DNA of 64,000 bases, taken from NCBI GenBank assembly GCA_017499595.2, contig CM039010.1:1178001-1242000 (forward strand), written 5' to 3'. A program made the position numbers and the translations under genes. Position 1 is the first letter of the stretch, and each line of letters starts with the position of its first letter. Shown here in pieces: positions 3,487 through 55,993 of the stretch. Source of the DNA: Psilocybe cubensis. Taxonomy: Eukaryota. The notes beneath the pieces are model-generated. The model did not search any database. It worked only from the letters and a program-made list of their open reading frames with translations, and was not told where the DNA came from.

Positions 3487-4828
3487 ATGACATTCGCATA
3501 TCGAAACCAGCCTTGGAAAGCCCTATATCTCGCAACACGAACAGCAGTTCTTCTATTCCAACTCCCGTTCTACGCCATTATATATATATATCCCGGCGCC
3601 CGTCCACGTCGAACCTGGTCAATTGGGCGCTCGCTCGTAATATTTGCTTTTCGCGCGTTCATCGATGTTCTATACAACACATCCCCTACTCTGATTGGCA
3701 GTGTGCGCCCAGTAGAGCAGATGACGCAGAAAGAAATAGAAGAGGCAGTGGAGTATGGCTTCGTTTGGGTTGACGGGGCGCCCGAGTTTGTCACTGGAGA
3801 AATCAAGGATGCTGCGCTTCTGAATGAAGTATCTCCAGCAAGGATATCTGGATACTGGTATGGAAAGCGTGATCCATATGGGAAGGCTGGACAGAGAGCA
3901 CTTCCAAATGAAAAGGTTATATATCACTTCCACGGTGAGTAAACTCATGGTGATATAGTTGCTGACATTCGTTACTTAAATTTGTTTCCTGAAGGTGGTG
4001 GATTTGTTGTTAGTCCTTCTGGGCCAACCTACGGAGATTATTATTGACTATACTATTTATTTACAGTCAGGAACTGGTCACCCTTCCAATATTCCAGGCA
4101 AAACAATGTTTGAAGGCTTGATGCAGTTCATTCCAGGAGAGCCAAGAGTATTTGCTCTAGAATACCGTCTGTCATCTACCACCCCATTCGCAAAAGCCAA
4201 CCCTTTCCCTGCCGCCCTGCTAGACGCAATCGCTGGGTACAGGTATCTCATACACGACATTGGGTTTCTTCCATCAAACATCATCATCAGCGGTGATTCT
4301 GCAGGCGGCCTGCTAGCCTTCTGGCTTGCTCAGTATATTTCAACAGCCAAGTATCCCGACCTACCGAATGCCGGGGGGCTTCTCCTGCTTTCTCCAACTG
4401 TAGACTGGGCCAACACACAAACGGGATCATCCTCTTCAATGGTACAGAACAAAGATACCGATTTTGTTGACAAGGTACTTCGAAGTGGATACCCTTGTCG
4501 AGCCCTCCTCGGCAAGATCTCAGAGGACGAAGTATACCAAAACGAGTGGATAGCACCAGGGTCTATCCATCTTTGTCACAAACCGGGAAAACATGCTAGG
4601 CTACCGAAAACCTGCATCGTAGCAGGTGGTGCTGAGCAGACGCTCGACTCGATGGTGACGCTGGCGAACCGACTCGCATACGACATGGGCCATGAAAAGG
4701 TGACGTTTTTGGAGGCAAAAGAGGGCACACATGATTTCCTTCTGTTTCCGTTATTTGAATTTGAAAAAATTGACACCTTGAAGAAAATAAAAAAGTGGGC
4801 GGAGGAGCAGATTTGGCCTACAGTCTAG
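3487..4828 (+). CDS. Alpha/beta hydrolase, HSL/Abhydrolase_3-type esterase/lipase
   Basis: YHFHG|GGFV oxyanion motif (14-nt microexon 3995-4008), FALEYRL, NPFPAALLDA, nucleophile elbow GDSAGG, C-terminal GTHDF; hydrophobic N-terminal anchor. Confidence 0.92.
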
Positions 4829-5726: not shown

Positions 5727-7927
5727 TTAAAAATTCTCTGCACAAAAAGTCAGCACTGATGTGTGGAGCTACTCGGATGACGGAAACATACCCTTTCCGA
5801 AGAAGAACCTGGTGCCCTTGGGGTCTGAGTACTGGTTTGATTTCTGGTGAAGGAGCTTGGAGAGCGCAGGAGGACCGCAGAAGAACTGAACAGATAGAAA
5901 TTAACAATAACGACGATTATGCTTAAAGATATAAATACGCACAACTCCAACGTCGGTCTCGGGATGTTTCTCAACAATTGAGGGGAAAACACGATCCCAA
6001 TTGGGTCTGCCGAAGTGGGTGGGCGCACGGAGAGAGGTAATGGCGTCCTTTTCAGCGCCAACATCTTGAACCTGCATAGCGAGTCAATAAACGGTTCATC
6101 AGTTCGAAAAGAAAAGAAACACACGATGATGTTGTTCATCTCGTCTTCCTTAATCCTGGCAGTGAGGTAGATGTTGATCTCGATTCTACCTTGAGTATCC
6201 TGCTCTTCGATGGCGTGCAAAAGGGAATGGAACCACTCCGCAGTGCCATAGTCACGAATAACCCAAGTGAAGTAAACCTTGGACAATCTTGTTGGCTTGG
6301 AGTTGTTCAGGTTATTCATGCGGTACCAGATAGACTTCAGGATGCTAATTCGAATTTAATTGAGAGCCAATACATGGAAAAAGTGATGGACAACACTTAC
6401 GAAGCAAAAGGAGTAACACCGATACCCGCACCGACAAGCAGAACAGTCTCATATTTAAGGAAATCCTCACTGGCACTACCGAAAGGACCATCAACCATGA
6501 CACGGGGAAGGGTGCGATTCAGTGGTGGGTTGACATTGGTCCCGACAACCTTGCCACCAGCTGGAGTATCACCCTTGCCACCCTTGTCTCCTTTCTGAGG
6601 GAAGTCGCAACCAAGAGCCTTGGCAAAAGCGGTAGTGAAGTCTCCCGCGACACGGATGTGAACGGAGATGTAGTCTTCCTCAGGTGCGCTGAAAATTCTC
6701 AGTCAACGAATTTATATTTGGTTGTCATGGAAAAAATACCTGGTGAGAGTGAAGGGATGCCACTGGAAGTAGGAGACCTCCGGGCAAGAGAGGAAGATGT
6801 ACTGGCCAGCTCGGGTTGTAGTCTTTTCCTTCTTGATCTGAACCTCCATCACGTTGGAAGGGTGTTGGATAACCTTGGAGATGTAGGTAACATGGCGAGA
6901 GCGGATTTCGCGGAGAATGCGCTCTCCGATCCAGATAACACCACCGACAAGCCAGTATCTCTGAGAACCGGTTAGTAAAGTTGTAGATGCGGAAATAGAT
7001 AGATTAAATGCTCACCCAGAAGACACCAATGGTGTTGAATGAACAATAAGGAGGTCGGTCGGGTTGAATCATACAGAACATGCCGTGGAGTTGCCAGTTG
7101 ATGAAGAACACAATGAAGAGATGGTGAGAGTACCAGAAACGCTCGAATGTGGCCCGGCGAACTTTTTCTCTAGCAAACCAGACCATGATTCCGAGAGCAG
7201 CGGTCATGATCCAGCCAGTCACACCAGGTCCAGTGAGGAAGTTGGCGCCGAGGAAGGCGACAATGCGACTCGAGGTGTTCGTTCCCGCAATCATGGCCAG
7301 CTTGTAGAAGTTGACCATGTGCGCAAGAATGTGGACGGCACTTCCAATAACAATGGACCAGGCGGTTGCCTTGTGCAAGGTGATGTTCTTGTCAAAGGGG
7401 ATGAAGTCGTTCAGGGGGGTGCGTCGGAGGAAAGAGACGAAGTTACGGCAGACGGGGAGAAGAATGAAGATAACATCGACGTGAAGGACGAGCGCAGCAG
7501 TCCTAGCAGTAGCTGCATTAGATGATAAGATAAGTGTGCCAATCCTGATCAGACTTCAAGAGGACGCACCGAATGTCAACCCAAAAGTTGCCCTGGCCCC
7601 CACCAAGTTGTCTTTGAGTTGATAATGGACGAATCCAAAGACAGCAACGAGGAGATGGAGGAATATCCAAACTCCAAAGAAGAGCTGGCGGCCTCCCTCA
7701 TTGATCATCCATGTATCGAACTTGGTCCAGAAGCTTTTGGGCTTTTCAGGGGCCTGGGTACGGGATGAAGAGGTCAAAGTCCTCTGAAGCCCCTGCAATC
7801 TCCGTCTCTCCGTCTTGTTGCGCTGCAGATGAGCAGCTCCTGATTTATCTGAGAGGTCGGGATGATTTTCGATGGTCATGTTGGGCACCCTGCCATCGGA
7901 GAAGTCGAGTCCCGAGGAACGGTTCAT
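5727..7927 (-). CDS. noxB: NADPH oxidase catalytic subunit (gp91phox family), NoxB/Nox2-type
   Basis: Heme helices ([23 protein letters not shown]), QWHPFTL FAD motif, [32 protein letters not shown] and terminal GKENF*. The N-terminal extension before WMINEG is typical of fungal NoxB. Confidence 0.92.
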
Positions 7928-13564: not shown

Positions 13565-15738
13565 ATGTCCGGTTTCTCCAGTCAATCCTTCGCGCTTGTC
13601 ATTGCCATTGTGATATCATGGGCCACCATGAGATTACTGAAAGCCTTTATTATTAATATAAAAAACAGACCACCCTACCCTCCTGGACCTCGGCCAAAGT
13701 TTCTCATTGGCAATATGTTCGATTTACCGTCCGTTGATTCCCCAATGGAATATGTGAAGTGGGAAAAGCGATATAACAGTGTGTCTAATTCTGTTCCACT
13801 ATATGTAACCTGACCTGGTTATAGGCCCTTTGCTCCACGCAGAAGTTCTGGGGAACCACATCCTCATAGTCAATGGTCTGGATGATGCAATTGCACTGTT
13901 TGAGCGACCAGAGAGGGCTAGGATTTACTCTGACAAACCAGCCTTACCTATTCTTGATCTGTAAGATGCCTCTTATTAGATGATTTACGGTTGTCATAGG
14001 TTAAAAATTTGGTGCGGATTACAGGATTGGAACAGAGATAAACATCGGTTTGATGCCGTACGGTGAAAAATGGAGAAATCATCGGCGGGTCAGCCACCAA
14101 AATTTCAATGTCCACGCTGTGCTACAGTACGAGCCAGTTCAAGCAAAGAAAGTGCGGGATCTACTCCATAACATTCTCAATAGCCCTGAGAGATTTCATG
14201 ACCATAATAAATTGTAATGTCTTTCCATTTCTTTTCTTCTAATCTTGCTCAATCCTAGTATTATTTCCAGGTTGTCAACTTCTGTCACCCTGTCAGCAAT
14301 GTACGGATACGAGGCTAAATCCGTTGATGATCCATGCATTGTTCTGGCGGATGAAGCGCTTAGGCTTACGTCTCAGCTGGTCGTTCCTGGAGGTAGCATG
14401 ATTAACGATATTCCAGTACTCCGCCACATTCCCAAGTGGTTTCCGGGTGCTTATTCCAGAAAACTTGCCGCTAAATCAAGAGCTCTGAACGAGGAAATAT
14501 GGAGAATCCCAATTGACTATGTGAAGAAAACATTAGTGAGTAAGATTTACACTGCAATCTAATGTGTGGAACATTGAATAGCAGTTTACCAGGATGAAGG
14601 TACCTTTTCACCATCTCTAGTAGCAAATTTCTACGAGAAAAAACTTGCATATGGGGCATCTGAAGAAGAGGAAGTCGCAGTTAGAAACACCGCCTATACC
14701 GCCTACGGAGGTATTCATCTATTGAACAACGGTTGACCTGTGCTCACACTGCTCCCTGATAGCGGGATCCGATACGGCAAGCGAATGTACTTGTTTTATT
14801 TTTGTTTGGCATACTTAACACAGTTTTACTAGATGGGATCCATCACCTACACATTCGTATATTTGATGATTTTACATCCCGACGTTCAGAAAAGAGCCCA
14901 CGACGAAATTGACAAAGTAATAGGATCAAATCGCCTACCTACTTTGGCTGATCGTAAGTCTTTGCCATACGTCGAAGCCATATATAGAGAGGTATTACGA
15001 CTATATCCACCCCTTCCCATTGGATTACCTCGAATCACCGCTGAGGATGATTATTATAATGGATACTATATCCCCAAAGGCAAGCAATTATCCGTCTTTC
15101 CGATACACAACGCCTTGAGCTCATATTGGGGTTTTAGGAACGACCGTGCTTACAAACATATGGTCAGCAGAACTCATTTTACTAATGCTATGCAATCATA
15201 ACATAAGCCACAGGGCAATGTCGCACAGCGAAAGGATCTACAGCGAGCCGTATCGATTCAACCCCGAGCGGCACTTTAACGCCAATGGAGACTTGGATGG
15301 AAAAAGGACACTGGGGTATGGATTTGGACGCAGGAAAGCAAATTTTTTTGCTTAAGTTTACATCGCCTCACATTATAATTACAGATCATGTGTGGGCAAA
15401 CCTATGGCCAGCAATACGGTGAATCCTCCTCTAGACTGTGGTGACCCTATCCCAATTTCTTAACATTATATGCCACAAGGCCTGGCTAATGATGGCTTCC
15501 ATACTTTACGCGTTCAACATAACGAAGGCGAAAGACAGGGAAGGGAATGATATCAAAGTAAACGACGAGTTTGAGACTACAGGAATTCTGTGGTGAGTAA
15601 ACTTAATCCTGCTCAAGTTATCACTCTTTCGTGATTATGATTTTCATTTCTCGTGCCATACCAAGTCGCAAGCAAGAATTTAAGTGCGATTTTCACCCTC
15701 GTTCCGCCGAGATACTGCGAGTAATTTTGGAAGCCTGA
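13565..15738 (+). CDS. Cytochrome P450 (CYP64-clan/CYP5144-like), paralog 2; needs a non-canonical GA-AG intron, otherwise a pseudogene
   Basis: YPPGPRPKFLIGN, MPYGEKWRNHRR, GAGSDTM, REVLR, FNPERH, YGFGRR|SCVG; same intron positions as paralog 1. Confidence 0.85.
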
Positions 15739-16075
15739 GAGTTAATTAAGCCTTGCTCAAGGTATTTAACTCAGAAATCATAGGTTTTTATTGACAAAAG
15801 ACCTCAGATGGCGCAAGAGCGGATGTCAAGCTAAAAAAATTGAAGTTCTTTTTGTTTATTAGAGATCATGTGACTGTGAGAATGTGACCGTAAAAACCAT
15901 CAACACTTTCAAAAAGCAATTTGATTTCAATTCAAGTTCTTAATACTCAACCAACCCAGAGCCCTGCGTATCTACCTCGCGCTCTCAAACGACAATCTCT
16001 CTACCTTTTTTCTCTTTTTCAACGCTGGATTTTCGTGCATCCAAGACTCTGTACCGGTTTCATCAACATTGGCGA

Positions 16076-16988
16076 TTAATCTGGCGTAGTTCCAGTGAAA
16101 CCATGAATCGTGTGGTCATTGCAGCCATTTGGTGTTTGATATCCATACGGGCCAAGGTTGATGTACACATGTCTATTCCCCTTACTGTCAGCACAAATAA
16201 GCCAGGCCTACGATGATCAATCCGAATCAGTGTCTTGTCATCACCCCCGGCATAGGCACAAATGTTGGGGAACGTACATTGCTCTGAGGCCTTGTTATTG
16301 CTGATGAGGTCCATTCTACAGTGTCGCCACTAAACTTGAATGCGCCAAGTGTATCTTTGGACTTGGACCAGGACACTTTAAGCTTCGAAACTGTGGAATT
16401 TGCGCGAGGCTCAACGACAGCATATAGAGGTGTATCTCCTTTATGAATCAATTGACCATCGGTAATTTGGAATTGGGCGGCGGTTACCGCCTCTCCGAGA
16501 ACGGCATCAGAAACAGTGTTGGGAACTTCAGACTGCAAATACTTGTGGAAGTTGGGCGAAGTCTATCAGGTACCTGTCAGTCAGATATATGCGCGATTTT
16601 TTGTGGCGTAGCACTCACGACGGCGCGAATGAAATTCCATCCTGGGGTGAGCGTTGGCGCTGGGCCACCTGGCCCTTTGGTTGTGCTGATACCACCACCC
16701 GGTGATGAGTCTATAGTCGTGGTTCCGCTTCCAGGGAACGATGTTGTCGTTGCGGCGCCTGGAAGACACTGCGAATACCATTGATTTGAGAATGTGCAAG
16801 TCCATCCTGAAGGACAGGTAGTAGGTCCTGACCATCCAGTACCACCGCACTGTTCTGACAATCAGCACTCGGCTCTAATTAGGGAACCATGTTGCAAGAG
16901 TATACACCTGTCCATATGAAGGAGCAGTCTGCGACAATGCAGTTCCTGCGAAAGCCAGACCGAAAGCAAGGAAGATGGTTCGGGTCAT
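16076..16988 (-). CDS. Secreted CBM1 + S/T/P/G linker + ~150-aa uncharacterised domain, copy A (4 exons)
   Basis: [56 protein letters not shown]...[20 protein letters not shown]...[48 protein letters not shown]. Confidence 0.92.
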
Positions 16989-17602
16989 TTTTAGAGATGG
17001 GGTTCAGTTGGTATATTTTTGGCACCTCAAATATAACCGTCCACATACCGCCAAACACTACTGTGAGCGACGTATGCTCCGAGCATCAGGCAATTTTTCG
17101 GCTTCGTTGTCATACTTCTCCAAAGGCTCGTGCATGCTGGACTGTTGTCCGAAGAGCTAGCCGATTCGGAACCCAAAACGGATGATATTCGGGCCATTAT
17201 TAAATGGAAAGGATTGCAAGTCTTTCCGGGATCTGTGGTGGAGGTCAGACTAGCACTGGCTGCCGCCACCACATGACGGACACCGACACCTGGAACGAAG
17301 GGCATGTGTAAAACTTTGCCAGTGAAATAGAGGCGAATTAATGCGATGTAAGCTCCGCGGTCCTGCGATGCACCAACACAGCCGCTGCTTCTACCGATCC
17401 TGTCCAACATTCTATCTAGTTCTATTTCTTGGCATTCTCGCGACCAAAAAAAATGGGTCTGATCTGGCAACAAATGACATCTTAGCCTGGTTACTGAGTA
17501 GTGAAGTCTTGGTCAAACACTCAAAAAGGGATATTGTGGCGCATATCATCTTTTTGGAATTATTTCTTCTCGGGCGTTGTAAGTACATTGTGATTTCAAC
17601 TT

Positions 17603-18507
17603 TTACGCTGTGGCAGTCGCTCCAGTGTAGGCGTGGATAGTCTCGTCAGCGCATCCAGCTGGTGTCTGGTAGGAGTACGCGCCAAGGTTAACATACAAGT
17701 CTTTGTTGCCTGCAGCATCTGGGCAAACCAGCCATGCCTACATGCAGGAATCAGCCAATTGACACGGACTCAAGGAGGATCGATAAAGATTCTCACATTG
17801 TTCTGTGGTCGTGTGATGCTGGGGTTGCTCCACTCAACCGTATCGCCACTGAAAACAAACGTGCCGCTGGTGGCTGGCGTAGTTGACCACGAAACTTTTA
17901 GCTTCACCACTGTAGAATTTGCACGAGGCTCGACCACAGCATACAGGTTCTTTCCGTTAGCGTTCTGGATCAGTTGTCCTCCAGTAATCTGGAACTGAGC
18001 GGCCGTGCTAGGTTCTCCGAGTACGGCATCCGACGCAGTGTTGAGCACCTCAGACTGCAGGTACTTGTGGAAATTTGGATCTTCCTGTGGAATAACATTA
18101 AATCAGGTACACAAACAGGCATTATTTGTTTAACGTACAACAGCTCTTATGAATGAGTATCCCGCCTGGAGAGTGGATGATCCACCAGCTGCGGTTGTCG
18201 TTGACGATGGCGCCGTGGTTGACCCTCCGGGGACGGTTGATGTTGTGTGGGGTGCACTGCTGGAGGCAGCTCCGGGAAGGCATTGGGAATAATATGGGTT
18301 GGAGTATGTACAAGTCCATCCAGAGACGCAGGTCGTCGCTCCTGACCATCCCTGGCCTCCACACTATAGAGAAATGGTGATGAGTATATCTATGGCATCC
18401 ATAGTCACTTGTTGGTATTTTCACACCTGTCCATACTGTGGGGCCTGCGCAATGACCTGGCCAACTAGGGTGCCCGCTAAAGTCAGAAAAAGAGCTAAGC
18501 TTGCCAT
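17603..18507 (-). CDS. Secreted CBM1 + linker + uncharacterised domain, copy B (4 exons)
   Basis: [56 protein letters not shown]...[20 protein letters not shown]...[49 protein letters not shown]. Confidence 0.92.
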
Positions 18508-19332
18508 GTCTTTCGAATGTGTAGATGATACCCAGCACACAGTATGACGGATTGAAAACTCATCGTTTTATACTCTTGAATTTTTCTTTATTTTTAGAGC
18601 AGCTACACGCAGGAAACCGACAAAGGCCTTACTTCGGCTTGGCTTCAGTGATATGAAGAGCCTAATAATCGAAAACAATTCCTCGGTGACCTAATAAGGT
18701 GGTTTTGTTTGTTGATTCGCGTCGACTGAATACTTCAACTTTACAGAAGTTATTTTTAGACAAGGTCATCCAGAGGGTAGGCGGAGAAATACGCAAAAAG
18801 AATCCGAGCTTAGTCTTGACGCTAACTTGATATCGTAGCGCTGATTATCATTCGAATAAACATAAGGCGAAGTAAATATGACTGTTATATGTCATTTGAA
18901 ATCTAGCAATTGAAAATCAGGGACTCACAACAATAGTATCTACATTTTCACAGTTAAAAAACATTCAGGAAACCTTCCTGACAACGGCACCCAGTCGTAA
19001 TATCTTCGGCTGAAAGTGACTTTGCAATAGGTCTACACCGACAGGTGCAAAAACGATGGGTTAATTGTGACATAATTTTACCGGGGGGTTCAGCAAATAC
19101 AAAAACTTAACTACCTGACTCAATGGCACTGATGTTTCTCTAAGGAGTTACATTGAGAGGGGTCAGTTATGAAATGATACCGACTGATCTTGCAAGTATA
19201 AATTGGTTTTAAGTTGCACGTTGGACCCACAAGTCTATACTTCCCATGACCAAGAAGCATCGGCTGGCGACTGATGATCAATATATACAGGAGAGAAATG
19301 GGTCGTATTTTTGGTTAATCTCCAGAAGTTAT

Positions 19333-20220
19333 CTAAGCCGTAGCAGTAGCTCCGGTGTATGCATGAATTGTTTCATCTGCGCACCCAGCTGGGGTCATGT
19401 AGTCATAAGCGCCGAGGTTAACATAGAGGAGTTTGTTGCCCGCGGCGTCGGGGCATACCAGCCATGCCTGATATAGCGAAATGCATTAGAAATTTTCGTA
19501 TAGTGCTATCCCGTACTCACGTTGTCTTGTGGCCTGGTAATGTCAGGGGTACTCCACTCGACAGTATCTCCACTGAAGACAAAGGTGCCACTGGTGGCAG
19601 GCGTTTTTGACCACGATACCTTAAGTTTGTTGACCGTTGAGTTTGCCCGAGGCTCGACAATAGCGTAGAGCGGTGTTCCGTTTGCATTCTGGATTAATTG
19701 CCCATTCGTAATTTGGAACTGAGCAGCTGTGCTTGGGTCTCCGAGAACGGCATCAGATGCCGTGTTTAGTATCTCAGATTGCAAGTATTTGTGGAAGTTG
19801 GGGTCTTCCTGTAAAAATTTGACATCAGAAATCTACTGGATACCACATTATAGTACATATACTTACAACAGCTCGGATGAACGAGTAGCCAGCCTGAAGT
19901 GTAGCAGATCCTCCTGTGGCAGTTGATGTCGAGGATGGTGGTGAACCTCCGCCTCCAGTTGACGATGGGGCAGTCGTGCTTGGTGCACTAGATGCAGCTC
20001 CTGGAAGGCATTGCGAGTAGTATGGGTTGGAGTATGTGCACGTCCATCCAGAGACGCAGGTAGTGGCGCCCGACCAGCCTTGACCTCCGCACTAGATAAA
20101 GAACGAATGAGCAAAGTCACCACAGAAGAAGAAAAAACTGACTTGGCCATATGCTGGCGATTGAGCAGAGGCATAGCTGATGGCGGACGATACTGCCAAT
20201 ATAAAAGTCAATCTCGTCAT
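19333..20220 (-). CDS. Secreted CBM1 + linker + uncharacterised domain, copy C (4 exons)
   Basis: [55 protein letters not shown]...[20 protein letters not shown]...[49 protein letters not shown]. Confidence 0.92.
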
Positions 20221-20851
20221 TGCGGCTGAGATTCGAGGAATGTGATACTGAGAGTCCGGCCCACTTCATGCACTTTTATACTGTTTCGTTATGTGTTTTT
20301 GCGGCATACTGCTGGCACGAAGGCGAAAACCGAACAAGAGGCTCTACTTCGGTTGAACGAGAATTCACAATGCAAATCTTGAAGTCGTGGTGAGCATATA
20401 ACCAATGACATCAATATTTATCCCTCCTCATCGGCCTCATGAGTGTTCATAACGCTATTAATATGCACTGGCAACGATCCTAAAAACAGCCAATTTTATC
20501 AAAGAGCACATGAAAGGACCAACTTCCCTACCCACCATCATCCCAATTTTTGTCAATCTGATCCATAGCGCAATTGCTATCGCAAACTTAAAGTCAGTCC
20601 AGATGTGCGGCGTTGATGAATCAGTCATTGACAAGATAAAGAGGATAAAGATGGATTGTGATAAATATAAAAGTTATTTCTTCGCGAAATCGTCGGATGG
20701 TATTTGATGCCTACTTCTGAGGTGGTCTTAATGAGAGTCAGAGTGAATATGCTGCGTTCTAATATAAGCATAAGAGTACAAAAATATAGACCTATATTTG
20801 AAAATTGTTTCAGCTTCTGTTTTCGAACATGATCCTGAGAAACCTGGAATC

Positions 20852-31310: not shown

Positions 31311-33230
31311 CTATAGTAGCAAGCCAATAACCAGCCCAGCGAGAGACAAAACCCCACCAAGAACAGAAGGAACGCTGAGTGCATTTGCTGCAGATTTTCC
31401 TGAATTATCCGAATTAGTCCCATCCTTACCTCCTGCGTCAGACCCACCCTTCGCTGTGCCTGTGGGAGCTGATGAGCTAACGACAGGAGTGGTAGTGAAA
31501 ATTCCAGCTATATCATTGTATCCGTTAGATCGCTATGTAAAGAGAGAACAATGCATCATTAAAAAAGTACTGACCTGATACAGCTGCCGACAGCGGTGGA
31601 GGATTGGTGTTGTTAAGGTTGGTCTCGATGTATGCATCAGCCATAGTCTTTCCTAGGCAAGAGATGACAGGCTTGATGCTGAAAGCAGGCTTGCGGTTAA
31701 GGGCGTCCGGAAGGATATAACCTGTGGCAACCTCCACAGTTTGTTCAAACAGATCATGCTCGAGAACGATGAAGCCGTGGTTCATAGTATTGGCATTGGC
31801 CACAATATCTTCCCAGTTCTGCAGAACCTGTTGAACGGAAGTTCCTCCGCCGGCAATGAAGAAATCTGAACACGGGTTGGATGTGAACGTTAGACATTAC
31901 TAGCACAAATGTGTGGACCTACCGCCGGTGTCAAAAGCAGACACGGCGCTGACACGGGTCCACATGATGGGAGTGAGGCCCATTGCCAACGAAATGGCTC
32001 GGACACGGTCACTGGAAAGGGTATCAAAGCATGTCAAATTAGCACTATTCTTAGAACAAAGTTCATTCACGCACTCAATGTCACCATAAGGTGGGCGCAT
32101 CGTATTGGGAGTGACACCCAGAACATCTTTGATGATCTTCTTGGACCATCCCAGCTCTGCAATAACCTGCTCGTTTGTCAAGCTGGTAAGGGGAGCAGCG
32201 TGACTCCAGGTGTGGACCGAGATTTGATGCTGTCCCATGTACTGGCTCTGAAGCATGATCGGGTGTTGGAAGACGCGGGAACCAACGACGAAGAATGTAG
32301 CCTTCAGTTTTTGTTCGTCCAAATAGTTGATCAAGTTCGGGGTGTATGGCGCGGGTCCATCATCATACGTCAACCCCCAGTCCATAGGTGTAGGGCATTG
32401 GGTAATGTCGCTCGTGCGATTGCATCCACCACACGACCACCAGCACCGAGAAGTATCAGCTGCAGCAGCCGCGTTCACACCTCCGCATCCAGCACCTGTA
32501 ACAGGGCACACCGAAATCAATAAATTTATTAAATCATGATAAAGGATAGGGCTAACTTGGATCGGTAGGAGCGAAGTCTGGAATAACGACACCTGAATTT
32601 TTGACATCTTGAATCCACTGTAGAACCTCTGGAGAATCTGTTGGAGGTACATGGTCCACGGGCGGATAGCTATCAGCAGGAAGGGGTAGCGCCGTAACTG
32701 TACAACATAGCATCAAAGTGTTAGAATGACATGACAGATCCACACTGGAATGATTAGTTATACGTACGACTCGGCAGAGGAGGTGCGCCTGGCAAAAACG
32801 TTGGGGTCGATCCGAAAGCTGCAGTAGACGTGTAGATGATCTGGGCAACACTGGATTGTGCCGAATTAATCTCAGACAAGGGTACAGCTGTCGGGTTTGT
32901 AGCCGCAAGGGTGAAGCTTAGAGTGGGTGTTGCTGAGACAGAGGTGGAAGTGGAGGCGGGTACTCCGGTGGCGATGCTTGATGGGGAGGTTGATGCCCCA
33001 GTGGGGGGCGGAGGAGGTGGAGGAGGAGGTGGTGGTGGTGGTGGAGGAGGAGGAGATGCCGGCGCACTAGTTGCAACAGGACTTCCAGATGCAGCAGGTG
33101 GTACAGACGATCCAGACGATGCGGAAGCACGGGCGTTTAGAATAGCATTATGGCGAGCATTAAGATTATCAATATGAGCAAAGGCAAGTACAGGGAAGAA
33201 GGTGAAGAAAATCGGTCTGGAGACCCTCAT
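31311..33230 (-). CDS. Chitin deacetylase (CE4), secreted, GPI-type C-terminus, paralog 1
   Basis: Signal peptide, 17-Pro tract, CWWSCGGC, WGLTYDDGP, HTWSH, RPPYGD, GFIVLEHDL and a hydrophobic C-terminal GPI-like tail. Confidence 0.94.
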
Positions 33231-34308: not shown

Positions 34309-35928
34309 CTAGGGCATGGCCAAGAGACCACCAAGCATAAGACCGGCAAGTGAAAGGATACCGCCTGCAGCAGACTGTGCGGAGACAGCAGGAGAAGTAT
34401 CCTTAGGTTTGCCACTGACTTTAACAACACCAGCTAAAATGACCGACTCGCAATCAGAACATGCGCATACAGAGCTTAAGAAAGTACTAACCATCAACGG
34501 CTTGTTTGAAGACAGGAGGATTGGTAGCGTTGTTATTTGTCTCAACGTACGCATCTGACATGGTTCTTGCCAAGCAGTTGACAACAGGTTGAATCTTGAA
34601 GGCGGGTTGATGGGCAAGGGCATCAGGCAGAATGTAACCAGTAGCAACTTCAACGGTTTGCTGCCAGATATCATGCTCAAGAGCGATGAAACCGGTATCA
34701 ATAGTGTTGGCTTTGTCGAGGACAGACTTCCAGCCGCTCAAGGCTTGATCCACGGTCACAGTGCCCGAGTGGATATCAAAATCTACAATTTTTTTGCTAA
34801 CATAAGCATCGAGTATAGCATCCGAAGTTACTGAGCATACCGTTGGTGTTGAAAGCCGAGTTGGGCCCCAAACGAGTCCACATCACAGGAGTGAGACCCA
34901 TAGCCAACGAAATCGCACGGACACGATCACTGAACATAATAAGTAACAGCTCAGCGAATTGTAGCAAAAACTCACTCAATGTCTCCGTATGGGGGACGCA
35001 TCATATTAGGAGTAACGCCGAGAACATCCTTGATGATTTTCTTCGACCACCCAAGCTCCGCAATGATTTGTTCGTTTGTGAGAGTCGTCAAAGCATAGTG
35101 ACTCCACGTGTGAATAGCGATTTGGTGTTGTCCCATGTACTGACTCTGGAGGGTCTGCCAGTTGTAGAAAACGCGAGAGCCGACGACGAAGAAAGTGGCC
35201 TTGATCTGCTTCTCGTCCAAGTATTCCATCAAGTTGGGCGTATATGGAGCAGGTCCATCATCGAAAGTCAAACCCCAGTCGAGCTTGGTGGGGCAGTCAG
35301 CAATGTCGCTAGCTCGTGTGCATCCACCACACGTCCACCAGCAGCGCGCAGTGCTGTTGGCAGCCGCGGCAGCGTTCTCCGGAGCAGTGCATATCGGGCC
35401 CGTTGCAGGAGCTAAATTATTATAACAGGTGAAAATGACGAATTGACAAAAATAAAACGCGAATCGTACGAACCAGCAACATTGAGAGACAAGTCAGGGA
35501 TAACAACACCGGTGTCCTTGACCTCCTGAATCCACCTCTTCACCTCAGGGGAGTCCGTAGGAGCTGGCTTGTCGGGGTCTGGATAGTCAGCAGCTCTAAG
35601 CGCGGTTACTATGGGAAAGGCGGATGAGTTAGGTCGTGTAACGCCTGATACTTTAAAAATGCGTACTAGCTGGCAGAGGTGGAGCCCCTGAAATGAAGGT
35701 GGGAACTGAACCTGCAACTGCTGTGGAGTGAAGAGCTTTCGTGGCTGAACTAGGCTGAAGGGAGTTGATAGCTGATAGGGGAACCGCTGTGGGGTTGGTG
35801 GCCGCGAGACTGAAAGTGTAACTGGTTGTCGAGCCTGAGGGATTTTGACGAGCATGGTGCTGGCGACCACCATGGGCGACGACCGCGGCAGGCAAGGCAG
35901 CGAGAAGGGCTTGCCTAGAGAACCTCAT
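34309..35928 (-). CDS. Chitin deacetylase (CE4), secreted, GPI-type C-terminus, paralog 2
   Basis: MRFSRQALLAALPAAVVAH signal, CWWTCGGC, WGLTFDDGP, HTWSH, RPPYGD, GFIALEHDI and a hydrophobic tail. Confidence 0.94.
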
Positions 35929-40190: not shown

Positions 40191-43100
40191 CTACCGGGTG
40201 TTATATGGAGGGTTATCTAGAGTTGAAGAAATATACAGTCAGAATAATGCAACGACTAACTAACAAAGCGAGAAAAAACAAACTTACTATATATACTATA
40301 TTGATCTGTAAGGAACATTGAAGGCTGCTGAGACTGCTGCTGCTGTTGTTGTTGTTGTTGCTGAGCTACCTGAACACTCTGTGGAATATCATATCCAGCT
40401 CCCAACTGCGAAGGATACGACGAATAGTCAAAGTACTGAGGCGGATACCGACGAGACTGGGATTGTTGCTGGTCTCCAGAATTATGCGAAGAATGGAGTC
40501 TAGTATGTGAGGTATGCATCCCTTCATCCACCAGCCCAGTACTATAAAGCTGAGGGAGCACCGCCGTCGAAAGGGGATTATTATAGCTGTGTGGGTTCAT
40601 GTTGCTCCCATGCCAGGTCGTATAACTAGAGTTCGCATTCATACTCGTCAGCGAAATACCACCAGACGAGGAAGCGGCAGCAGAAGGAGGAGGAGGCTGC
40701 GACACATTATACGCAGACTGAGCGTCGTCAAACGACGTGGTCCCCGCATCATGCTGGAACGACGTTTGCTGGTGGATCGACCCGCGCGGGCGGAGCGGTT
40801 CCCGAAGATACTCGTTCGAAAACGAGTGTTGCAGTACCCGTGTACTGCTGCTGCTGCCAAAGGTACTATCATCCAGAACGTTATCGGCGACGCGCTTGTT
40901 GCGTTCCGTAGGTATATGCCTTAAAGGTATCGGTGGTGCTGGGTCTGTGGACATCTCGGCTTTTGTACCACCGAAGAGGTCGAGGGCTCTAGCGGCACTG
41001 GGCCAGACTACCCTCATAGCACGAAGGGCATTCATGCATTTCGCAAACCCGATACGAGCCTGCGGGTCATTCGGATGCACGGTGACTAGGGCAAGAATAA
41101 AGACATTAGCAAATATATGCGCATTTTATTAAAGTTTTGAGACGTACGATTAGTATCGTGCATGATCGTAGCGGTGAAGACATAGTAACACAAAAAGACG
41201 GGGCATCGAGCAATCAAGTACTTCTCCTGATACAACGAAACTACAAAAGAAAAAAGAGAGAGAAAGTAAATATATGCGCGCATATATCCACGATAACTGG
41301 AGATGGCGACCGCGTACCTATAGTGGTGATATGATTAGCCGCCGCATTGCAAAGCTCGTATCTCTTCGCAGTAAGCGCTCTAGCGTCAGGGTCATCAGAC
41401 GTTTCCGATCTGGAAAAAAAAAGCGGAAAAGCGGCTTATTAGTCTTTTTATGCTCCCAATCAAAATATAGAACAACACCATCTCACTGTTTTTGTTTTGC
41501 CTGAACCATATTGCGGATGCTAAAACAGAATAATGCGATCAGTGTCCGTCCGTTGTCCGTGTCCGTGTCCATCAGAGTCTCGCGAAAAGGGAAAAAGAAA
41601 AACACTTATAAGGATGGAGGGAGGGGGGAACGAGGTACTCACAACGGCCGATGCAACAAAAGCACCGCACACCAGTACTGCATATGGAGTGTCAAGACAT
41701 TAGGGAGTGGAGGGGGTTTAGAGGAGCTAGGTTCGTATCGCAGATGGTCCGGTAGTTCGATATACCACTTATCCAGCAGCCCCTCCAGAACAGCCGATTC
41801 CGCGTGGCGACTCGACAACGGACGGACAGCGTAAATGGACTGAACGATGTTACTCAAGATACCCGCTAAAAAGGGGGGGAAAATTAAGTGAGTGAGTGGA
41901 GTGAAGATATAGACATATACGGCAGAACTCACAGAGCATGGCAGAGGCGTTAAAACAGGATATGCTCCGCGCTGGCAAGGGGGGTGTCCGCTCGCCGCGA
42001 GCAGACTCCAAAGACCATTCTTCGAACTCTTCTGGGTCTTCGTCGTTCGGAAGAGGGGTATCAAAATCCCATTCAAAGATCATGAGTGGCCGGCCTGCAT
42101 ATGGATGGGGGACGCCAAAGAAAGGTAAGCTATCGACCCATGACAACAGTGCAGGAAAAAGATCCCACTGACCAATATACGTAGAGACATATTTGTCCAT
42201 AATGACACACCCGAACCAGATCCTTTTCCTTTCGTTCAGCTCCCACTCACTGAACAACCTTCCGCCTAAGCCAACTCTCTCCCATCCGTCGGCACTGCGA
42301 TGCATACCCAGATCTTGCGCCATACGTATCGCCATACCGATATATGTCCACGCTTGCGCCATGGCACCTATTCCTATCTCTCTATACCCCATCAATAGCA
42401 AAGCCTGACACGTCGAAGGACGAGAGGAAGCATATGTTCTATCCATCATAATTTTAGCGTGATCCAAATACTCATCCCCAGCGGACCACATCACGGACGG
42501 GTCGGACGGAGGCAAGGCGGTCTCATCGTAGCGGGACGCGAGAGCAAACATCGACAGGAGCAGTACCGTCGGGATACGACGGTGCTGCTTGTTAAACGGA
42601 GATGTGTTGGATGCATCGGGGTCGGAGGTCGGTGGTGAATCAGCTTGTGTCCTAAAGGAAGCCGGCATTCTATGAGTTCAACGGAGGGGATCAAACATTA
42701 AAAACCAAAAAAAAAAAAAACACGCACGAGGCTCTGAAAGACTCCAAAAAAGATTTCTTGTGTATGATAGGAAAGAGCGGCTGGACATAAGTGAAATAAA
42801 GATCCAAAAGATGCTCCTGGAGCTGAAGCGGCGGGAGTTGAGATGCGAACTCGTCCTCCCCGCTCAAAATAGCAGATGCGGAGGGCAGTGGGGGCCACAC
42901 GCGCGCTTTAGGAAACCTCCTACAAAAAAAGCAACAAAAATAAAAAACGTCAAAACTATCTCCAACGATTCCGACGGGTGGAAACCTTAAAGGGATGTTG
43001 GGTCACGAACCAGATACCACCCTCGTTCCTCTGATCCACCCTTTCCTTGTTTCCCAGAAGATACAGCCCGCTGGCCTTCCCATGATACCTGACCTGTTCG

Positions 43101-53300: not shown

Positions 53301-55993
53301 TATCCCTCTCCATTCGGCGTCGCTTTCTGCTCATCTCAGCAATCATTTCTGTCTGAAGATCATCTCTGGCAACCTGTTGGTGTTAGAAAATCACATATTA
53401 GATGTTTTAATATTAGAATTTAGATGATAGCCATATTTACCTTCCACCAACTCCAAACTCCTGATTCATCCGCCTTTCGACGAGCTTCCGCGTTGGCGAT
53501 TTCGTAGGAGCGCTTCCTCGAAGCGAGCTCGAGGCGCTTGTCTCTTCGTTGGGAAAGCTCTTTTTGCAAATGTAGCATTTCCGGATGTATAGCTACGACA
53601 AGATAAAATGATATAAACCTAACGGAAATGAACAGTAAACGACAGAACTTACCAGATTGAACCATGAGTTCTTCCCAAGCTAAGCCCTCCATTTTCTCCA
53701 CATATACTCGCTCTCTGAGTAGAGCGAATTTGAGTTCAATGGTGGCCAAAACGTCTAACGCTTCCGCGCGATGAGCGGGTTGCAAATCGCCATCGTGATC
53801 TTCGACATCGGCGTCTACATCGCCAGGCGAAGGATCCTCGTCATTGTCGCCCTCTTCGCCTTCTTCATTGTCTTGTTCGGCTTCAGCAGCTTCTGGGTCC
53901 TGCTCGTTCTCGTGGTCTTCGTCTCCTTCACCCTCATTCTCCTCGCCGTCACCTTCTCCTTCGACCGCCTCCTCTTCGTTGTCCTGCTCACCGTCGGCTG
54001 CTTCTCCATCAACAGGGTCTGCCTCCTCCTCTTCATGGGTGGACTCTTCACGCTCTTCTTCACCATCCTCTTCCTCTTCTTCTTCTTCCTCTTCCTCCTC
54101 CTCCTCCTCTGGTTCGGCGTCTTCATGCTCCATGGAAACATCACCCGCCTCTTCATTAGAGTGATTGGCAGTTTTATCTGCTTCGCCGTCGACGTCCATA
54201 TCTTCATCATCGGCAATCGCAGCAGCTGCATCGTCTGCAGGCTCATCGACGATTGTATCAATTTGAAGTGCAGGCGGGCCTTTCTTCGTCGTTGGCGAAG
54301 GAATATTATCTCCAGAATCGACCGAAGGATTGGAAGAGGCGGCGCCATTAACTTTGACGCCGTTCTCTTTCTTCTCGTTCGCAGCAGCTGGCGCAGAGGG
54401 CTTCCCCCGAGGTTTCGCCTTGCCACCTCTGACATTCGCTCGAACTCTGGCCTTGCCCTTGCGTGGCTTCGATTCGTCGCCGCTGTTACCGTCCGCCTCT
54501 GGGGTATGCGATCTCGAACGCGACGGATCAGCAGCGACGTCCGATGATGCAGTAGACGAGACAGGGGGGTTTTCGACAAATGATGACGCTCCGGCCATGA
54601 TAGAAGCCGAAACGGCGGCGGCGTTGATGGACGCTACCTCGTTAGCGGGAGGGGATGTGGGGTCGGCAGCGTGGGCGATGGCAGCCAATGTGGAGAGTGC
54701 AGTGGTTCCAGTGTCGATGGGGCTCGTGAAAGAGGGTAAAGTGCCCGAGGTTGGGATGGCCTTGGAAGAGGGCAATGAGGCGTCGGGTTTGGTTGAATGC
54801 TGGGCGTTGGCGTTGTCTTCAGACTGCGTTGAATGGCCATCGCGACTGGAGCCATCCGAATCATTGCCCTCGCCATGGTCAACCTTGGTGGTGGCGCCAC
54901 TCTTCTTCTTCTTGGTCACGGTTTGGTGGTCTTCATCACCGCCGTTACCCTTCCGTTTCTTCGAAGCAGAGGTAGGGGCACGGGCTTTCATAGGCCTCTT
55001 CTTTTTGCTGGAACGGTATTCGGACCCAGAGGCGGACCCGTCATCGTCGTCATCGTCACCATTGGCGAGCGGGCGATCTTCGTATTCTTCGCTATCTTGA
55101 AGGGTGTCGCTTTTAGCAGCAGGTATTCGACGGGATGCCTTTTCTGACTTTTCAGGTCCATCTTCCTGGTCGACTTTCTCGACTTCGCCCTCTTCTTCCT
55201 TACGGAGGCGCTCCAGGAACTCCTCGCGGAGTGTCCGTTCAATCTGGCTTTTGTGGGCAGCTGACTTGGCCATCTTAGGCTGACTTCCGTAGATTGGCCT
55301 CCATGCAGGATGATCACCGTCAACTTTCAACCACATTGCATAGGACCAACCAGATTTGCGTTTTTTCGAGCCATAACCGCGTGCATCCGGCACTCGGTTT
55401 TTGGGGTTGGTCGAGTTGACTTTACGATGGGATGGGCCGTCGTGGTCTCCGTTCTCGTCATCCATCTCTGCTGGTCCCTCTTCCTCTTCCTCCTCTTCCT
55501 CTTCCATGGGACGAGGAGGTCCGGCGGTGTCTTCCTCTTCTTCTTCTTCGGCGGGAGCCGTACTGGCTGGCGCCCTGGACTCAGCCCAGCCCCACATGGG
55601 AGCTGGCACTATGCTACTCCTCTTCTTGCGGCCGGGACCACCCCCACGCGCAGAGAGCGAGCGCTGGTGTTTTCCGCGTTTCGCTGGTCTTGAAGATGAC
55701 GGGCCAGGGAGATTGGCCGGGTCGTCATCATCATCGTCTGCCCCATCTGCGGTGCGAGGTGGGAGCGACGAGCTGTGGGAGGGCTTTGCTGAGGCATTTC
55801 GTTTATCGAGAGCAGCAGCAGCGTCCTGGTCATCGTCAGTGAGCTCCGAGAGCTCCGAGTCTGTGTCAAGGGGTCTGAAGGTGGGGGCATTGGGGGCGGA
55901 TGGCTGCTGGGGGAGATGTTTTTGCCCAGGCGGTGGTGACGGAGAGGGAGAGGGAGAGCTGAGAGACTCGAGGGAGAGAGTTGAGCTCGCCAT
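50376..55993 (-). CDS. Sds3-like domain protein (Dep1-type Rpd3L HDAC subunit) with very long low-complexity arms
   Basis: HRAEALDVLATIELKFALLRERVYVEKM..HPEMLHLQKELSQRRDKRLELA..VWSWWK matches the Sds3-like coiled-coil; acidic N-terminal half; His/Gly/Met/RD-rich C-terminal half. An in-frame upstream ATG exists at 56110. Confidence 0.85.

What the first reader, a model, noticed from the sequence alone, without database searches (positions are those of the whole stretch)
16076..20220. Triplicated secreted CBM1 + uncharacterised ~150-aa domain: candidate unrecognised cellulose-targeted protein family
Seen: three tandem genes with identical 4-exon structure, each with a signal peptide, intact CBM1, S/T/P/G linker and a strongly conserved C-terminal domain ([80 protein letters not shown]). 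Linkers diverge freely while the domain is retained. Known: CBM1 normally tethers catalytic or disruptive modules (GH, CE, AA9, swollenin) to cellulose. I recognise no such motif here: no N-terminal His1 brace and no GH signature. Inference: an uncharacterised cellulose-acting or cellulose-adhesive module with two invariant His and a Cys pair. Copy A differs at candidate functional positions (DHTIH vs DETIH; TSPN vs EDPN), suggesting subfunctionalisation.
Basis: partly seen in the sequence, partly recalled or inferred. Interest (0 to 1): 0.75.

Follow-up and report, generated by a model that had tools for sequence, protein, structure and literature searches.

The report
Three cellulose-anchored beta-trefoil proteins of unknown function
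Three neighbouring mushroom genes each encode a secreted protein with a cellulose anchor and a strongly conserved head that is predicted to fold like sugar-binding lectins, so it is more likely a second binding module than a new enzyme, and its function is still untested.

Summary
Three tandem minus-strand genes (16076-16988, 17603-18507, 19333-20220) share one 4-exon plan. Each encodes a signal peptide, an intact CBM1, a Ser/Thr/Pro/Gly linker and a ~150-aa C-terminal domain. My spliced models are letter-identical to three NCBI Psilocybe cubensis proteins, which are misnamed 'endo-xylanase C' and 'glucuronoyl methylesterase' because of their CBM1 and linker.

The domain is already catalogued as Pfam DUF7908 (with DUF7907) and has hundreds of homologues across Basidiomycota and Ascomycota, with or without an N-terminal CBM1. 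None of the names or papers I saw reports a characterised member. Two AlphaFold2 models (domain pLDDT >90) give a 12-strand beta-trefoil. The best structural match has Z 11.4, and all 50 best solved neighbours are beta-trefoils, mostly lectins and CBM13/CBM42 modules, plus some protease inhibitors. No solved structure is related by sequence.

Copy A belongs to an old paralogue clade, and all three copies are under strong purifying selection.

Best reading (0.55): a non-catalytic, two-headed binder in which CBM1 holds cellulose and the trefoil binds a second, probably polysaccharide, ligand. Rival readings are an inhibitor, an enzyme and a defence lectin.

The parts
16076..16988 (-). Gene A (242 aa, identical to P0105). 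Exons 16988-16908, 16849-16619, 16562-16278, 16207-16076 (stop included). Introns 16850-16907, 16563-16618, 16208-16277.
   Evidence: Splice search and translation. Identical to P0105. Pfam CBM_1 E 8.7e-13 and DUF7908 27.7 bits against a cut-off of 27.
17603..18507 (-). Gene B (242 aa, identical to P0002). Exons 18507-18427, 18363-18139, 18084-17797, 17737-17603. Introns 18364-18426, 18085-18138, 17738-17796.
   Evidence: Pfam CBM_1 E 7.1e-13 and DUF7908 31.8 bits. AF2 model m3e885a40d00d.
19333..20220 (-). Gene C (241 aa, identical to P0007). Exons 20220-20143, 20091-19867, 19808-19521, 19467-19333. Introns 20092-20142, 19809-19866, 19468-19520.
   Evidence: Pfam CBM_1 E 3.9e-13 and DUF7908 29.3 bits. 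Intron 3 is removed in a spliced contig of run X5.
16763..16922 (-). Copy A CBM1 coding part (aa 23-56, interrupted by intron 1). The linker (aa 57-94) is coded by 16762-16649.
   Evidence: for coordinates. Pfam CBM_1.
16079..16648 (-). Copy A beta-trefoil/DUF7908 domain coding part (aa 95-242, interrupted by introns 2 and 3).
   Evidence: The fold is inferred from the model of copy B and 68% domain identity.
18277..18441 (-). Copy B CBM1 coding part (aa 23-56, interrupted by intron 1). The linker (aa 57-92) is coded by 18276-18169.
   Evidence: The AF2 CBM1 block has pLDDT 85-92 and the linker 45-58.
17606..18168 (-). Copy B beta-trefoil/DUF7908 domain coding part (aa 93-242, interrupted by introns 2 and 3).
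   Evidence: AF2 pLDDT 93-98 with 12 strands. VIA-align Z up to 11.4 against beta-trefoils.
20005..20157 (-). Copy C CBM1 coding part (aa 22-55, interrupted by intron 1). The linker (aa 56-91) is coded by 20004-19897.
19336..19896 (-). Copy C beta-trefoil/DUF7908 domain coding part (aa 92-241, interrupted by introns 2 and 3).
   Evidence: Domain identity to copy B is 91%.
17079..17169 (.). Two CCGA-N13-15-TCGG palindromes upstream of gene A (17079-17101 and 17149-17169). Putative promoter elements.
   Evidence: The function is inferred only.
18617..18637 (.). CCGA-N13-TCGG palindrome about 110-130 nt upstream of gene B's ATG. A TATA-like AGTATAAAA lies at 18566-18574 (minus strand).
20330..20352 (.). 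CCGA-N15-TCGG palindrome about 110-132 nt upstream of gene C's ATG. A TATA-like AGTATAAAA lies at 20274-20282 (minus strand).

Best explanation
The three genes are old paralogues. They encode secreted, non-catalytic, two-headed binding proteins of the DUF7908/DUF7907 family.

Shown:
- A signal-peptide-like N-terminus.
- An intact CBM1 (four Cys and the aromatic residues).
- A roughly 36-38-residue Ser/Thr/Pro/Gly linker predicted to be disordered.
- A C-terminal ~150-residue domain predicted with high confidence to be a 12-strand beta-trefoil with one conserved disulphide (C203-C227).

Inferred:
- The CBM1 docks the protein on crystalline cellulose.
- The flexible, probably O-glycosylated linker lets the trefoil head reach a second ligand nearby.
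- The head binds through the conserved polar and aromatic residues. These concentrate in its first and third lobes: P105/H108/Y110/Q112/Q132, and R194/N215/Y219/Y221/D229/T231 (N198 is invariant among Agaricomycetes only). The middle lobe conserves only core residues.
- The ligand is most likely an invariant polysaccharide. It could be a plant matrix glycan beside cellulose, or a glycan of the fungus's own wall, which would make the protein a hypha-to-cellulose bridge.
- The proteins are probably made together with the lignocellulose-degrading secretome.
For: Architecture and gene models.

Fold:
- Two independent AF2 models were built from different alignments (domain pLDDT >90).
- VIA-align against 48,161 chains gave 99 with Z>=8. 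The best was the mussel lectin 5duy (Z 11.4, rmsd 2.8, 121 aligned).
- All 50 listed rows are beta-trefoils. By my reading of the titles, about 30 are lectins or CBM13/CBM42-type modules (for example 1knl CBM13 Z 9.9, 9fnk CBM42 Z 9.0, 9kl2 mushroom lectin PPL Z 10.3).
- Foldseek agrees on the fold in both models.

Modularity:
- In the held sequences with a near-full domain, 101 of 110 (Agaricomycete-rich list) and 40 of 114 (Ascomycete-rich list) carry a CBM1.
- The CBM1 is always N-terminal. Three proteins have two CBM1s.
- CBM1-less secreted forms exist, for example in Schizophyllum (P0048, P0090). The head is therefore an autonomous module.

Constraint:
- dN/dS between B and C is 0.028 in the domain and 0.158 in the linker, with dS saturated.
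- 31 positions are >=85% conserved in 50 sequences that go down to 35% identity. This fits an invariant ligand better than an arms-race target.

Expression in relatives:
- In that paper's Table S1 it has logCPM 1.8 and non-zero counts in 5 of 10 samples.
Against: - No binding experiment exists for any family member that I could find.
- A shared fold does not show function (tool note).
- The domain has no ricin-type QxW repeats and no detectable internal repeat (z <= 1.2).
- It hits no Pfam lectin or CBM family at E <= 0.1.
- Foldseek finds no PDB match at E <= 0.001.
- The nearest named language-model clusters are fungal protease-inhibitor families I66 and I48, ahead of CCL2-like and ricin-B lectins. 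The scores are only 0.75-0.77, which the tool calls leads only.
- In CBM1 proteins this position is usually filled by a catalytic domain (general knowledge).
- The very high conservation is enzyme-like.
- I could not obtain model coordinates, so the clustering of conserved residues on one face is inferred from strand order only.
- The expression evidence for the Heterobasidion orthologue is modest, and no run on record as RNA was available for this organism.
Confidence: 0.55

Rival explanations
1. A cellulose-anchored inhibitor. The beta-trefoil head blocks a protease (as mycocypins, cospin, cocaprins, Kunitz inhibitors or the effector MoErs1 do) or another hostile enzyme. The CBM1 parks it on the substrate, where the fungus's own cellulases need protection.
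For: - Fold neighbours include cocaprin 7znx (Z 9.7), MoErs1 7vs2 (Z 9.6), macrocypin 8ae5 (Z 9.2), and the Kunitz-type 8hnr and 3e8l (Z 9.4).
- The nearest named language-model clusters are Inhibitor_I66 and Inhibitor_I48, at only 0.77.
Against: - There are no Pfam inhibitor hits at E <= 0.1.
- Scores of 0.77 are below the tool's lead threshold.
- The loops are as conserved as the core. Inhibitor reactive loops usually vary (general knowledge).
- The known fungal trefoil inhibitors are cytoplasmic and lack a signal peptide, a CBM1 and a disulphide (recalled).
Confidence: 0.17
2. A new enzyme or cellulose-disrupting module on a beta-trefoil scaffold. The conserved H108, D183, R194, D229 and Tyr residues would form an active site that acts on cellulose or a linked polymer.
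For: - The head sits where catalytic domains sit in CBM1 proteins (general knowledge).
- Constraint is enzyme-like: dN/dS 0.028, and 35-50% identity between Basidiomycota and Ascomycota members.
- Polar residues are conserved.
Against: - By their titles, none of the 50 best structural neighbours uses the trefoil itself as a catalytic domain. Where an enzyme is listed, the aligned range is an appended module (my reading).
- The second 'invariant' His is not conserved.
- There is no N-terminal His brace.
Confidence: 0.1
3. A secreted defence or attack lectin. The trefoil binds glycans of competitors, grazers or hosts, as CCL2, CNL, MOA and the trefoil domains of pore-forming toxins do. The CBM1 concentrates it on colonised cellulose, or on the cellulose walls of oomycetes or plants.
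For: - Many neighbours are defence lectins or toxin targeting domains: CNL 3nbc Z 9.3, Coprinopsis lectin/toxin 2 9s11 Z 10.5, CEL-III 1vcl Z 9.8.
- The Botrytis homologue Bcin02g04440 was a GWAS candidate for host specificity, and was called 'a cellulase' there (PMC8496218, passage).
Against: - Defence lectins are usually lineage-specific and fast-evolving (general knowledge). This family is conserved across Dikarya.
- No toxin or pore-forming partner domain was seen in the 32 architectures scanned.
- The GWAS hit is a candidate only.
Confidence: 0.1

Closest known systems
Pfam DUF7908 (PF25485) and its sister DUF7907 (PF25484): fungal domains of unknown function
   Same: The full-length proteins reach the DUF7908 gathering score (31.8, 29.3 and 27.7 bits against 27). 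Homologues carry PF25485 and/or PF25484 in the precomputed columns.
   Different: The scores are marginal, and many clear homologues carry no DUF hit. The Pfam entry says nothing about fold or function. This report adds the beta-trefoil assignment, the CBM1 association and the conserved-residue map.
Ricin-B-type (R-type) lectins and CBM13 modules, e.g. Streptomyces lividans xylan-binding CBM13 (1knl) and the mushroom lectins PPL (9kl2) and CNL (3nbc)
   Same: The same predicted 12-strand beta-trefoil: Z 9.3-10.3, rmsd 3.0-3.5, 115-125 residues aligned. It is appended to or combined with other carbohydrate-active modules.
   Different: Sequence identity is 12-16%. There is no Pfam Ricin_B hit at E <= 0.1, no QxW triplet and no internal repeat signal. 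Conserved polar residues lie in two lobes only. The ligand is unknown.
CBM42 (arabinofuranose-binding beta-trefoil, e.g. 9fnk, 3akf) and CBM92 (beta-1,6-glucan-binding trefoil, PMC11039641, abstract seen in the listing)
   Same: Non-catalytic beta-trefoil modules that bind cell-wall polysaccharides. Z is 9.0-9.1 for the CBM42 entries.
   Different: There is no sequence relationship. No CBM92 entry was among the 50 rows shown, which does not exclude the family.
Fungal beta-trefoil protease inhibitors (cocaprin 7znx, macrocypin 8ae5; families I48, I66, I85) and the effector MoErs1 (7vs2)
   Same: The same fold at Z 9.2-9.7. They are the nearest named language-model clusters.
   Different: There is no sequence-family hit. 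This protein has a signal peptide, a CBM1 and a disulphide. Its loops are highly conserved.
Non-catalytic or enigmatic CBM1 proteins such as swollenin and Cip1 of Trichoderma reesei (recalled, not examined here)
   Same: CBM1 plus linker plus a non-glycosidase head, secreted together with cellulases.
   Different: Those heads have other folds (expansin-like, and a lectin-like beta-sandwich, from memory). No sequence or fold link was seen here.

Membership tests
CBM1 (PF00734) | HMM score above the gathering cut-off (20.6 bits); four Cys and the flat aromatic face | tested here: met
   48.4-49.5 bits in all three proteins. Four Cys and the Y/W...YY/WY aromatics are visible in the sequences. AF2 pLDDT is 85-92, and Foldseek matches 1cbh and 5x39.
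Pfam DUF7908 (PF25485) | Whole-protein HMM score at or above the gathering cut-off of 27 bits | tested here: met
   31.8 (B), 29.3 (C) and 27.7 (A) bits. Single exons alone fall just below: 21.6-26.7 bits.
Beta-trefoil fold | Twelve beta-strands in three four-strand lobes with pseudo-threefold symmetry | tested here: met
   This rests on predicted models only. There are 12 strand elements in residues 97-235 and the same in the second model. 99 PDB representatives reach Z>=8, and all 50 listed are trefoils.
Ricin-B lectin / CBM13 | Sequence signature: Pfam Ricin_B_lectin or RicinB_lectin_2 hit, and a (QxW)3 internal repeat | tested here: not met
   No such Pfam hit at E <= 0.1 on the full proteins or E <= 1 on the exons. 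Lobe-against-lobe alignments are no better than shuffles (z -0.04 to 1.18).
Ricin-B lectin / CBM13 | Measured carbohydrate binding | not testable with these tools
   This needs recombinant protein and glycan or polysaccharide binding assays.
Fungal trefoil protease inhibitors (I48, I66, I85) and Kunitz I3 | Sequence-family hit | tested here: not met
   No Pfam inhibitor family at E <= 0.1. Language-model similarity is only 0.77. Inhibition itself cannot be tested here.
LPMO (AA9 and related) | His as the first residue of the mature protein (histidine brace) | tested here: not met
   After the signal-peptide-like stretch, the sequences continue directly into the CBM1 (P-x-Y-G-Q-C-G-G) with no His.

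The most novel reading that the evidence does not exclude
The trefoil head is not just a second anchor. It is a new kind of cellulose- or cell-wall-active module, catalytic or fibre-disrupting, built on a beta-trefoil scaffold. That would explain its enzyme-like conservation from Ascomycota to Basidiomycota, and why it sits where catalytic domains sit in CBM1 proteins. A milder version, with roughly 0.35 probability, is that it founds a new carbohydrate-binding module family with a specificity not yet described.
Probability: 0.1. Interest if true: 0.85.

Novelty: new member of a known kind. Interest (0 to 1): 0.42.

Why it matters
- **An untested part of the decay secretome.** The family occurs in hundreds of wood-, litter- and plant-attacking fungi and is repeatedly fused to CBM1. 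In one relative it appears next to cellulases and LPMOs in planta. Its activity has not been tested in anything I could find.
- **What a defined ligand would give.** It would add a CBM family or an accessory factor to the lignocellulose toolbox.
- **Annotation errors.** Public names such as 'endo-1,4-beta-xylanase C', '4-O-methyl-glucuronoyl methylesterase', 'cellulase' and 'endoglucanase' come from the CBM1 and linker alone. They already leak into interpretation: the Botrytis homologue is called 'a cellulase' in a GWAS paper.
- **Limits.** If the head is simply one more lectin-like binder, this is an ordinary addition to a known kind.

Tried and rejected
- **RNA evidence for this organism.** No RNA holder was listed. 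Two runs guessed to be RNA gave only three short contigs. This says nothing about expression level.
- **Window's genome.** No whole genome is held for this window, so further paralogues could not be counted.
- **Sequence links to solved structures.**
  - Single protein P0048: only a chance-level hit at E 0.56.
  - Full-length profile A1: only CBM1 hits. The CE15 esterase 6rv8 matched through CBM1 plus linker, which explains the misnaming.
  - Domain-only profile A2: nothing at E <= 10.
- **Foldseek.** No PDB match at E <= 0.001 for either model. Families not seen among the listed rows, such as expansin-like or LPMO folds, are not excluded by that absence.
- **Internal threefold sequence repeat.** Not detectable.
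- **Fusion partners as clues.**
  - GH16 + domain (P0230) has a truncated domain and an odd middle part.
  - Amidoligase_2 + domain occurs in about ten Colletotrichum models. It has no N-terminal signal peptide, and a signal-like stretch sits just before the domain.
  - A GST fusion also appears (P0182).
  - I read all three as probable merged gene models and gave them no weight.
- **Neurospora lead.**
  - NCU09764, which I recalled as a CBM1 protein of unknown function, is GH131.
  - NCU09524 ('cellulose binding domain', a CLR-1/CLR-2 target) could not be tied to this family.
  - The N. crassa homologue found (P0424, 289 aa) shows DUF7908 but no CBM1 in the precomputed column, so that link is doubtful.
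- **Literature searches.**
  - 'DUF7908' and 'DUF7907': 0 papers each.
  - 'CBM1' + 'beta-trefoil': 52 papers. None of the 25 listed titles concerns this family, and the term also matches CBM13 and similar.
  - Accession searches gave only PMC6318961 and PMC8496218.
  - One search was swamped by my too-general term.
  - Passages read in PMC4256170, PMC10282164 and PMC9668830 did not mention the family.
  - A recalled DOI for a Schizophyllum regulator paper was not held.
  - Protein IDs mostly sit in supplements that the full-text search does not cover, so expression data may exist that I could not see.
- **Earlier findings of this scan.** Nothing by place, sequence or words.
Full report
**Observation**

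The region 16076-20220 holds three genes on the minus strand. A brute-force search for GT..AG introns that keep the frame open gave one consistent 4-exon model per copy.
- A: 16988-16908, 16849-16619, 16562-16278, 16207-16076.
- B: 18507-18427, 18363-18139, 18084-17797, 17737-17603.
- C: 20220-20143, 20091-19867, 19808-19521, 19467-19333.

The nine introns are 51-70 nt. They interrupt the protein at the same three places in every copy.

The spliced translations (242, 242 and 241 aa) are letter-identical to database proteins P0105, P0002 and P0007. NCBI lists these from Psilocybe cubensis on one 2.3-Mb contig, under the names '4-O-methyl-glucuronoyl methylesterase' and 'Endo-1,4-beta-xylanase C'.

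Each protein has, in order:
- a hydrophobic N-terminus that AF2 models as a helix;
- a CBM1 (Pfam E about 1e-13);
- a 36-38-residue Ser/Thr/Pro/Gly linker;
- a ~150-residue C-terminal domain.

**How the copies relate**

| Pair | Domain identity | Linker identity |
|---|---|---|
| B-C | 136 of 150 | 20 of 36 |
| A-B | 100 of 148 | 13 of 33 |

Synonymous sites are saturated even between B and C (dS > 1.7). For that pair, dN/dS is 0.028 in the domain, 0 in the CBM1 and 0.158 in the linker. The copies are therefore old and all are kept under purifying selection.

Psilocybe cyanescens has the same three copies in the same order, merged into one 674-aa gene model (P0001).

A tree of 37 domain sequences was built with a quick IQ-TREE search, with SH-aLRT support only.
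- Copy A and the third P. cyanescens segment fall in a clade with second copies from Crassisporium, Agrocybe and Pholiota, and with sequences from Panaeolus and Crepidotus (support 99).
- B and C sit among the 'main' Agaricales sequences, with weak resolution.
- Copy A is thus a member of an older paralogue lineage, not a recent divergent copy.

Its 'DHTIH' residue 230 is a variable position in the family (E75 Q15 H5 of 96).

**What the domain is**

Pfam assigns it to DUF7908 at or just above the gathering score (31.8, 29.3 and 27.7 bits against 27). DUF7907 appears as a weaker alternative in relatives.

The family is large.
- The third exon of copy B as query found 163 proteins at E <= 0.001, mostly Agaricomycetes.
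- The same query found 129 clusters in the 50%-identity library.
- A profile of CBM1-less members found 443 proteins.
- A Neurospora member as query found 575 at E <= 1e-20.
- The last two lists span Sordariomycetes, Leotiomycetes (Botrytis, Sclerotinia), Eurotiomycetes, Dothideomycetes and lichen fungi.

Every informative name in those lists is one of 'hypothetical', 'CBM1 domain-containing', 'DUF7907/7908 domain-containing', or an evident transfer from the CBM1 ('cellulase', 'endoglucanase', 'xylanase', 'methylesterase'). The full-length profile hits the CE15 esterase 6rv8 through CBM1 plus linker only. That explains the misnaming.

**Domain architecture**

I built HMMs of the domain and of the CBM1 from the alignment and ran them over all held proteins.
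- Agaricomycete-rich list: 101 of 110 near-full domains carry a CBM1.
- 50%-identity library list: 15 of 51.
- Ascomycete-rich list: 40 of 114.
- The CBM1 is always N-terminal, never C-terminal. Three proteins have two CBM1s (P0194, P0164 and one in the first list).

CBM1-less secreted forms exist in Schizophyllum (P0048, P0090) and in many Ascomycota.

Fusions to GH16, Amidoligase_2 and GST look like merged gene models. I gave them no weight.

**Fold**

| Model | Built from | Mean pLDDT | Domain pLDDT |
|---|---|---|---|
| P0002 (copy B) | 96-sequence alignment | 86.6 | 93-98 (blocks of 10) |
| P0048 (CBM1-less) | independent 27-sequence divergent alignment | 88.7 | 91-98 (blocks of 10) |

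In the copy B model, the linker scores 45-58. Both models show 12 strands.

VIA-align against 48,161 PDB representatives found 149 chains with Z >= 5 and 99 with Z >= 8.
- The top row is the mussel lectin 5duy (Z 11.4, rmsd 2.8, 121 aligned).
- All 50 rows shown are beta-trefoils, with sequence identity of 5-16%.
- By my reading of the titles, about 30 are lectins or carbohydrate-binding modules of enzymes: CBM13 1knl Z 9.9, xylanase CBM13 1isv Z 10.0, CBM42 9fnk Z 9.0, and the mushroom lectins PPL, PSL, CNL, RSA and SSA.
- Six are protease inhibitors or inhibitor-like: 7znx, 7vs2, 8hnr, 3e8l, 1wba, 8ae5.
- The rest are cytokine-type, toxin-targeting or other trefoils.

Foldseek agrees on the fold for both models but has no hit at E <= 0.001. 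Its best are PPL lectin at 2.5e-3 and the CARDS toxin trefoil at 3.4e-3.

So the fold is clear, but no specific trefoil family stands out. There is no sequence link to any solved structure. The language-model atlas puts the protein in its own DUF7908/7907 cluster. With those families excluded, the nearest are fungal trefoil families (I66, I48, CCL2-like, RicinB_2) at scores of 0.75-0.77, which are leads only.

**Conserved residues**

In 96 Agaricomycete sequences the domain averages about two-thirds identity to copy B.

In 50 sequences that go down to 35% identity, these positions keep one residue in >= 85% (P0002 numbering): P105 H108 Y110 L111 Q112 A122 A130 Q132 G138 Q139 L149 Y150 V153 L164 G176 F178 G182 D183 W187 R194 A199 C203 N215 G217 Y219 Y221 P224 G226 C227 D229 T231.
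- C203 and C227 are invariant, which suggests a disulphide joining strands 10 and 12 (inferred).
- Reading these positions against the strand order, the conserved polar and aromatic residues fall in lobe 1 (the loop into strand 2, and strand 4) and in lobe 3 (the loop into strand 10, the strand 11 loop, and strand 12).
- Lobe 2 keeps only core-type residues.
- There is no internal sequence repeat and no QxW triplet.

This picture of one or two sites rather than three is an inference. I had no access to model coordinates.

**Expression and biology in relatives**

[quoted passage not shown] It is marked as having a signal peptide and sits beside GH5, GH6, GH7 and LPMO genes (PMC6318961, passages).
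- The discussion of that paper says a CBM1-containing protein was also highly expressed in an earlier pine-bark study.
- Its Table S1 gives logCPM 1.8, with non-zero counts in 5 of 10 samples. This is modest.
- The Botrytis homologue Bcin02g04440 (P0400) is named as a GWAS candidate for host specificity and is described there as a cellulase (PMC8496218, passage).
- I found no functional study of any family member. The searches are listed under Tried and rejected. Supplements are not covered by the full-text search.

**Mechanism**

The best-supported reading is a non-catalytic, two-headed binder.
- CBM1 docks on crystalline cellulose. This is established for the module in general, not for these proteins.
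- The disordered linker acts as a tether.
- The trefoil head binds a second ligand.

Three things point to an invariant polysaccharide as that ligand:
- the fold's usual job in secreted, CAZyme-associated contexts;
- the autonomy of the head, which occurs with none, one or two CBM1s;
- conservation that extends to the loops.

Whether the polysaccharide is a plant matrix glycan or a fungal wall glycan (a hypha-to-cellulose bridge) cannot be told here. I give this reading 0.55. The rivals are a cellulose-parked inhibitor (0.17), a new enzyme or disruptive module (0.10) and a defence lectin (0.10).

**Novelty and verdict**

The genes are already annotated (wrongly named) and the domain is already a Pfam DUF. 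The predicted fold is a familiar one, so this is a new member of a known kind rather than a new kind.

What remains interesting is that a pan-Dikarya, enzyme-like-conserved, CBM1-associated trefoil has no known ligand or activity. It is also systematically misannotated as a hydrolase or esterase.

Noticed in passing
window 17079-17101, 17149-17169, 18617-18637, 20330-20352: The palindrome CCGA-N13-15-TCGG occurs 4 times in the 64-kb window, against 2.09 expected (11 of 100 shuffles reach 4). All four lie in the upstream regions of the three genes, about 90-180 nt before the ATGs. B and C also share AGTATAAAA at -67 and -62. This may be a zinc-cluster regulator site kept in all paralogues. The pattern was derived from these same sequences, so the count is post hoc.
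   Followed up: partly
window 16743-17051 (joint 16820/16883): A 247-nt contig in a run guessed to be RNA skips 16821-16882 with GT..AG on the plus strand. That is antisense to gene A, across its start codon, intron 1 and the CBM1 exon. It may be a natural antisense transcript. It is a single contig at depth 5.3. A second contig runs unspliced from 16000 to 16260, through exon 4 into intron 3.
   Followed up: no
P0001 (Psilocybe cyanescens, 674 aa): The three orthologous genes of P. cyanescens are merged into one gene model in the order C-like, B-like, A-like. The junction text is clearly intergenic or intronic read-through.
   Followed up: partly
P0158 and P0494-P0506 (Colletotrichum spp.): About ten Colletotrichum gene models join an Amidoligase_2 domain to the DUF7908 domain. 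The N-terminus has no signal peptide, and a signal-like hydrophobic stretch sits just before the trefoil. These are probably two neighbouring genes merged by one annotation pipeline, although the recurrence could also mean conserved adjacency.
   Followed up: partly
window 31900-32712 and 34972-35493 (minus strand): Two nearby ORFs each match Polysacc_deac_1 (E 1e-28 and 6e-32). This looks like a tandem pair of chitin-deacetylase-type genes. Other exon-level hits in the window are a P450 at 14833-15201 just upstream of the triplet, a ferric reductase at 5750-7555, an alpha/beta hydrolase at 3980-4828, a fungal transcription-factor domain at 41850-42677 and an Sds3-like protein at 53420-56119.
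   Followed up: no
public annotation of P0002, P0007, P0105 and many homologues: Names such as 'Endo-1,4-beta-xylanase C', '4-O-methyl-glucuronoyl methylesterase', 'Cellulase', 'Endoglucanase gh5-1' and 'mannan endo-1,4-beta-mannosidase F' are attached to proteins that contain only CBM1 plus this trefoil. The transfer comes from CBM1-plus-linker similarity.
   Followed up: yes
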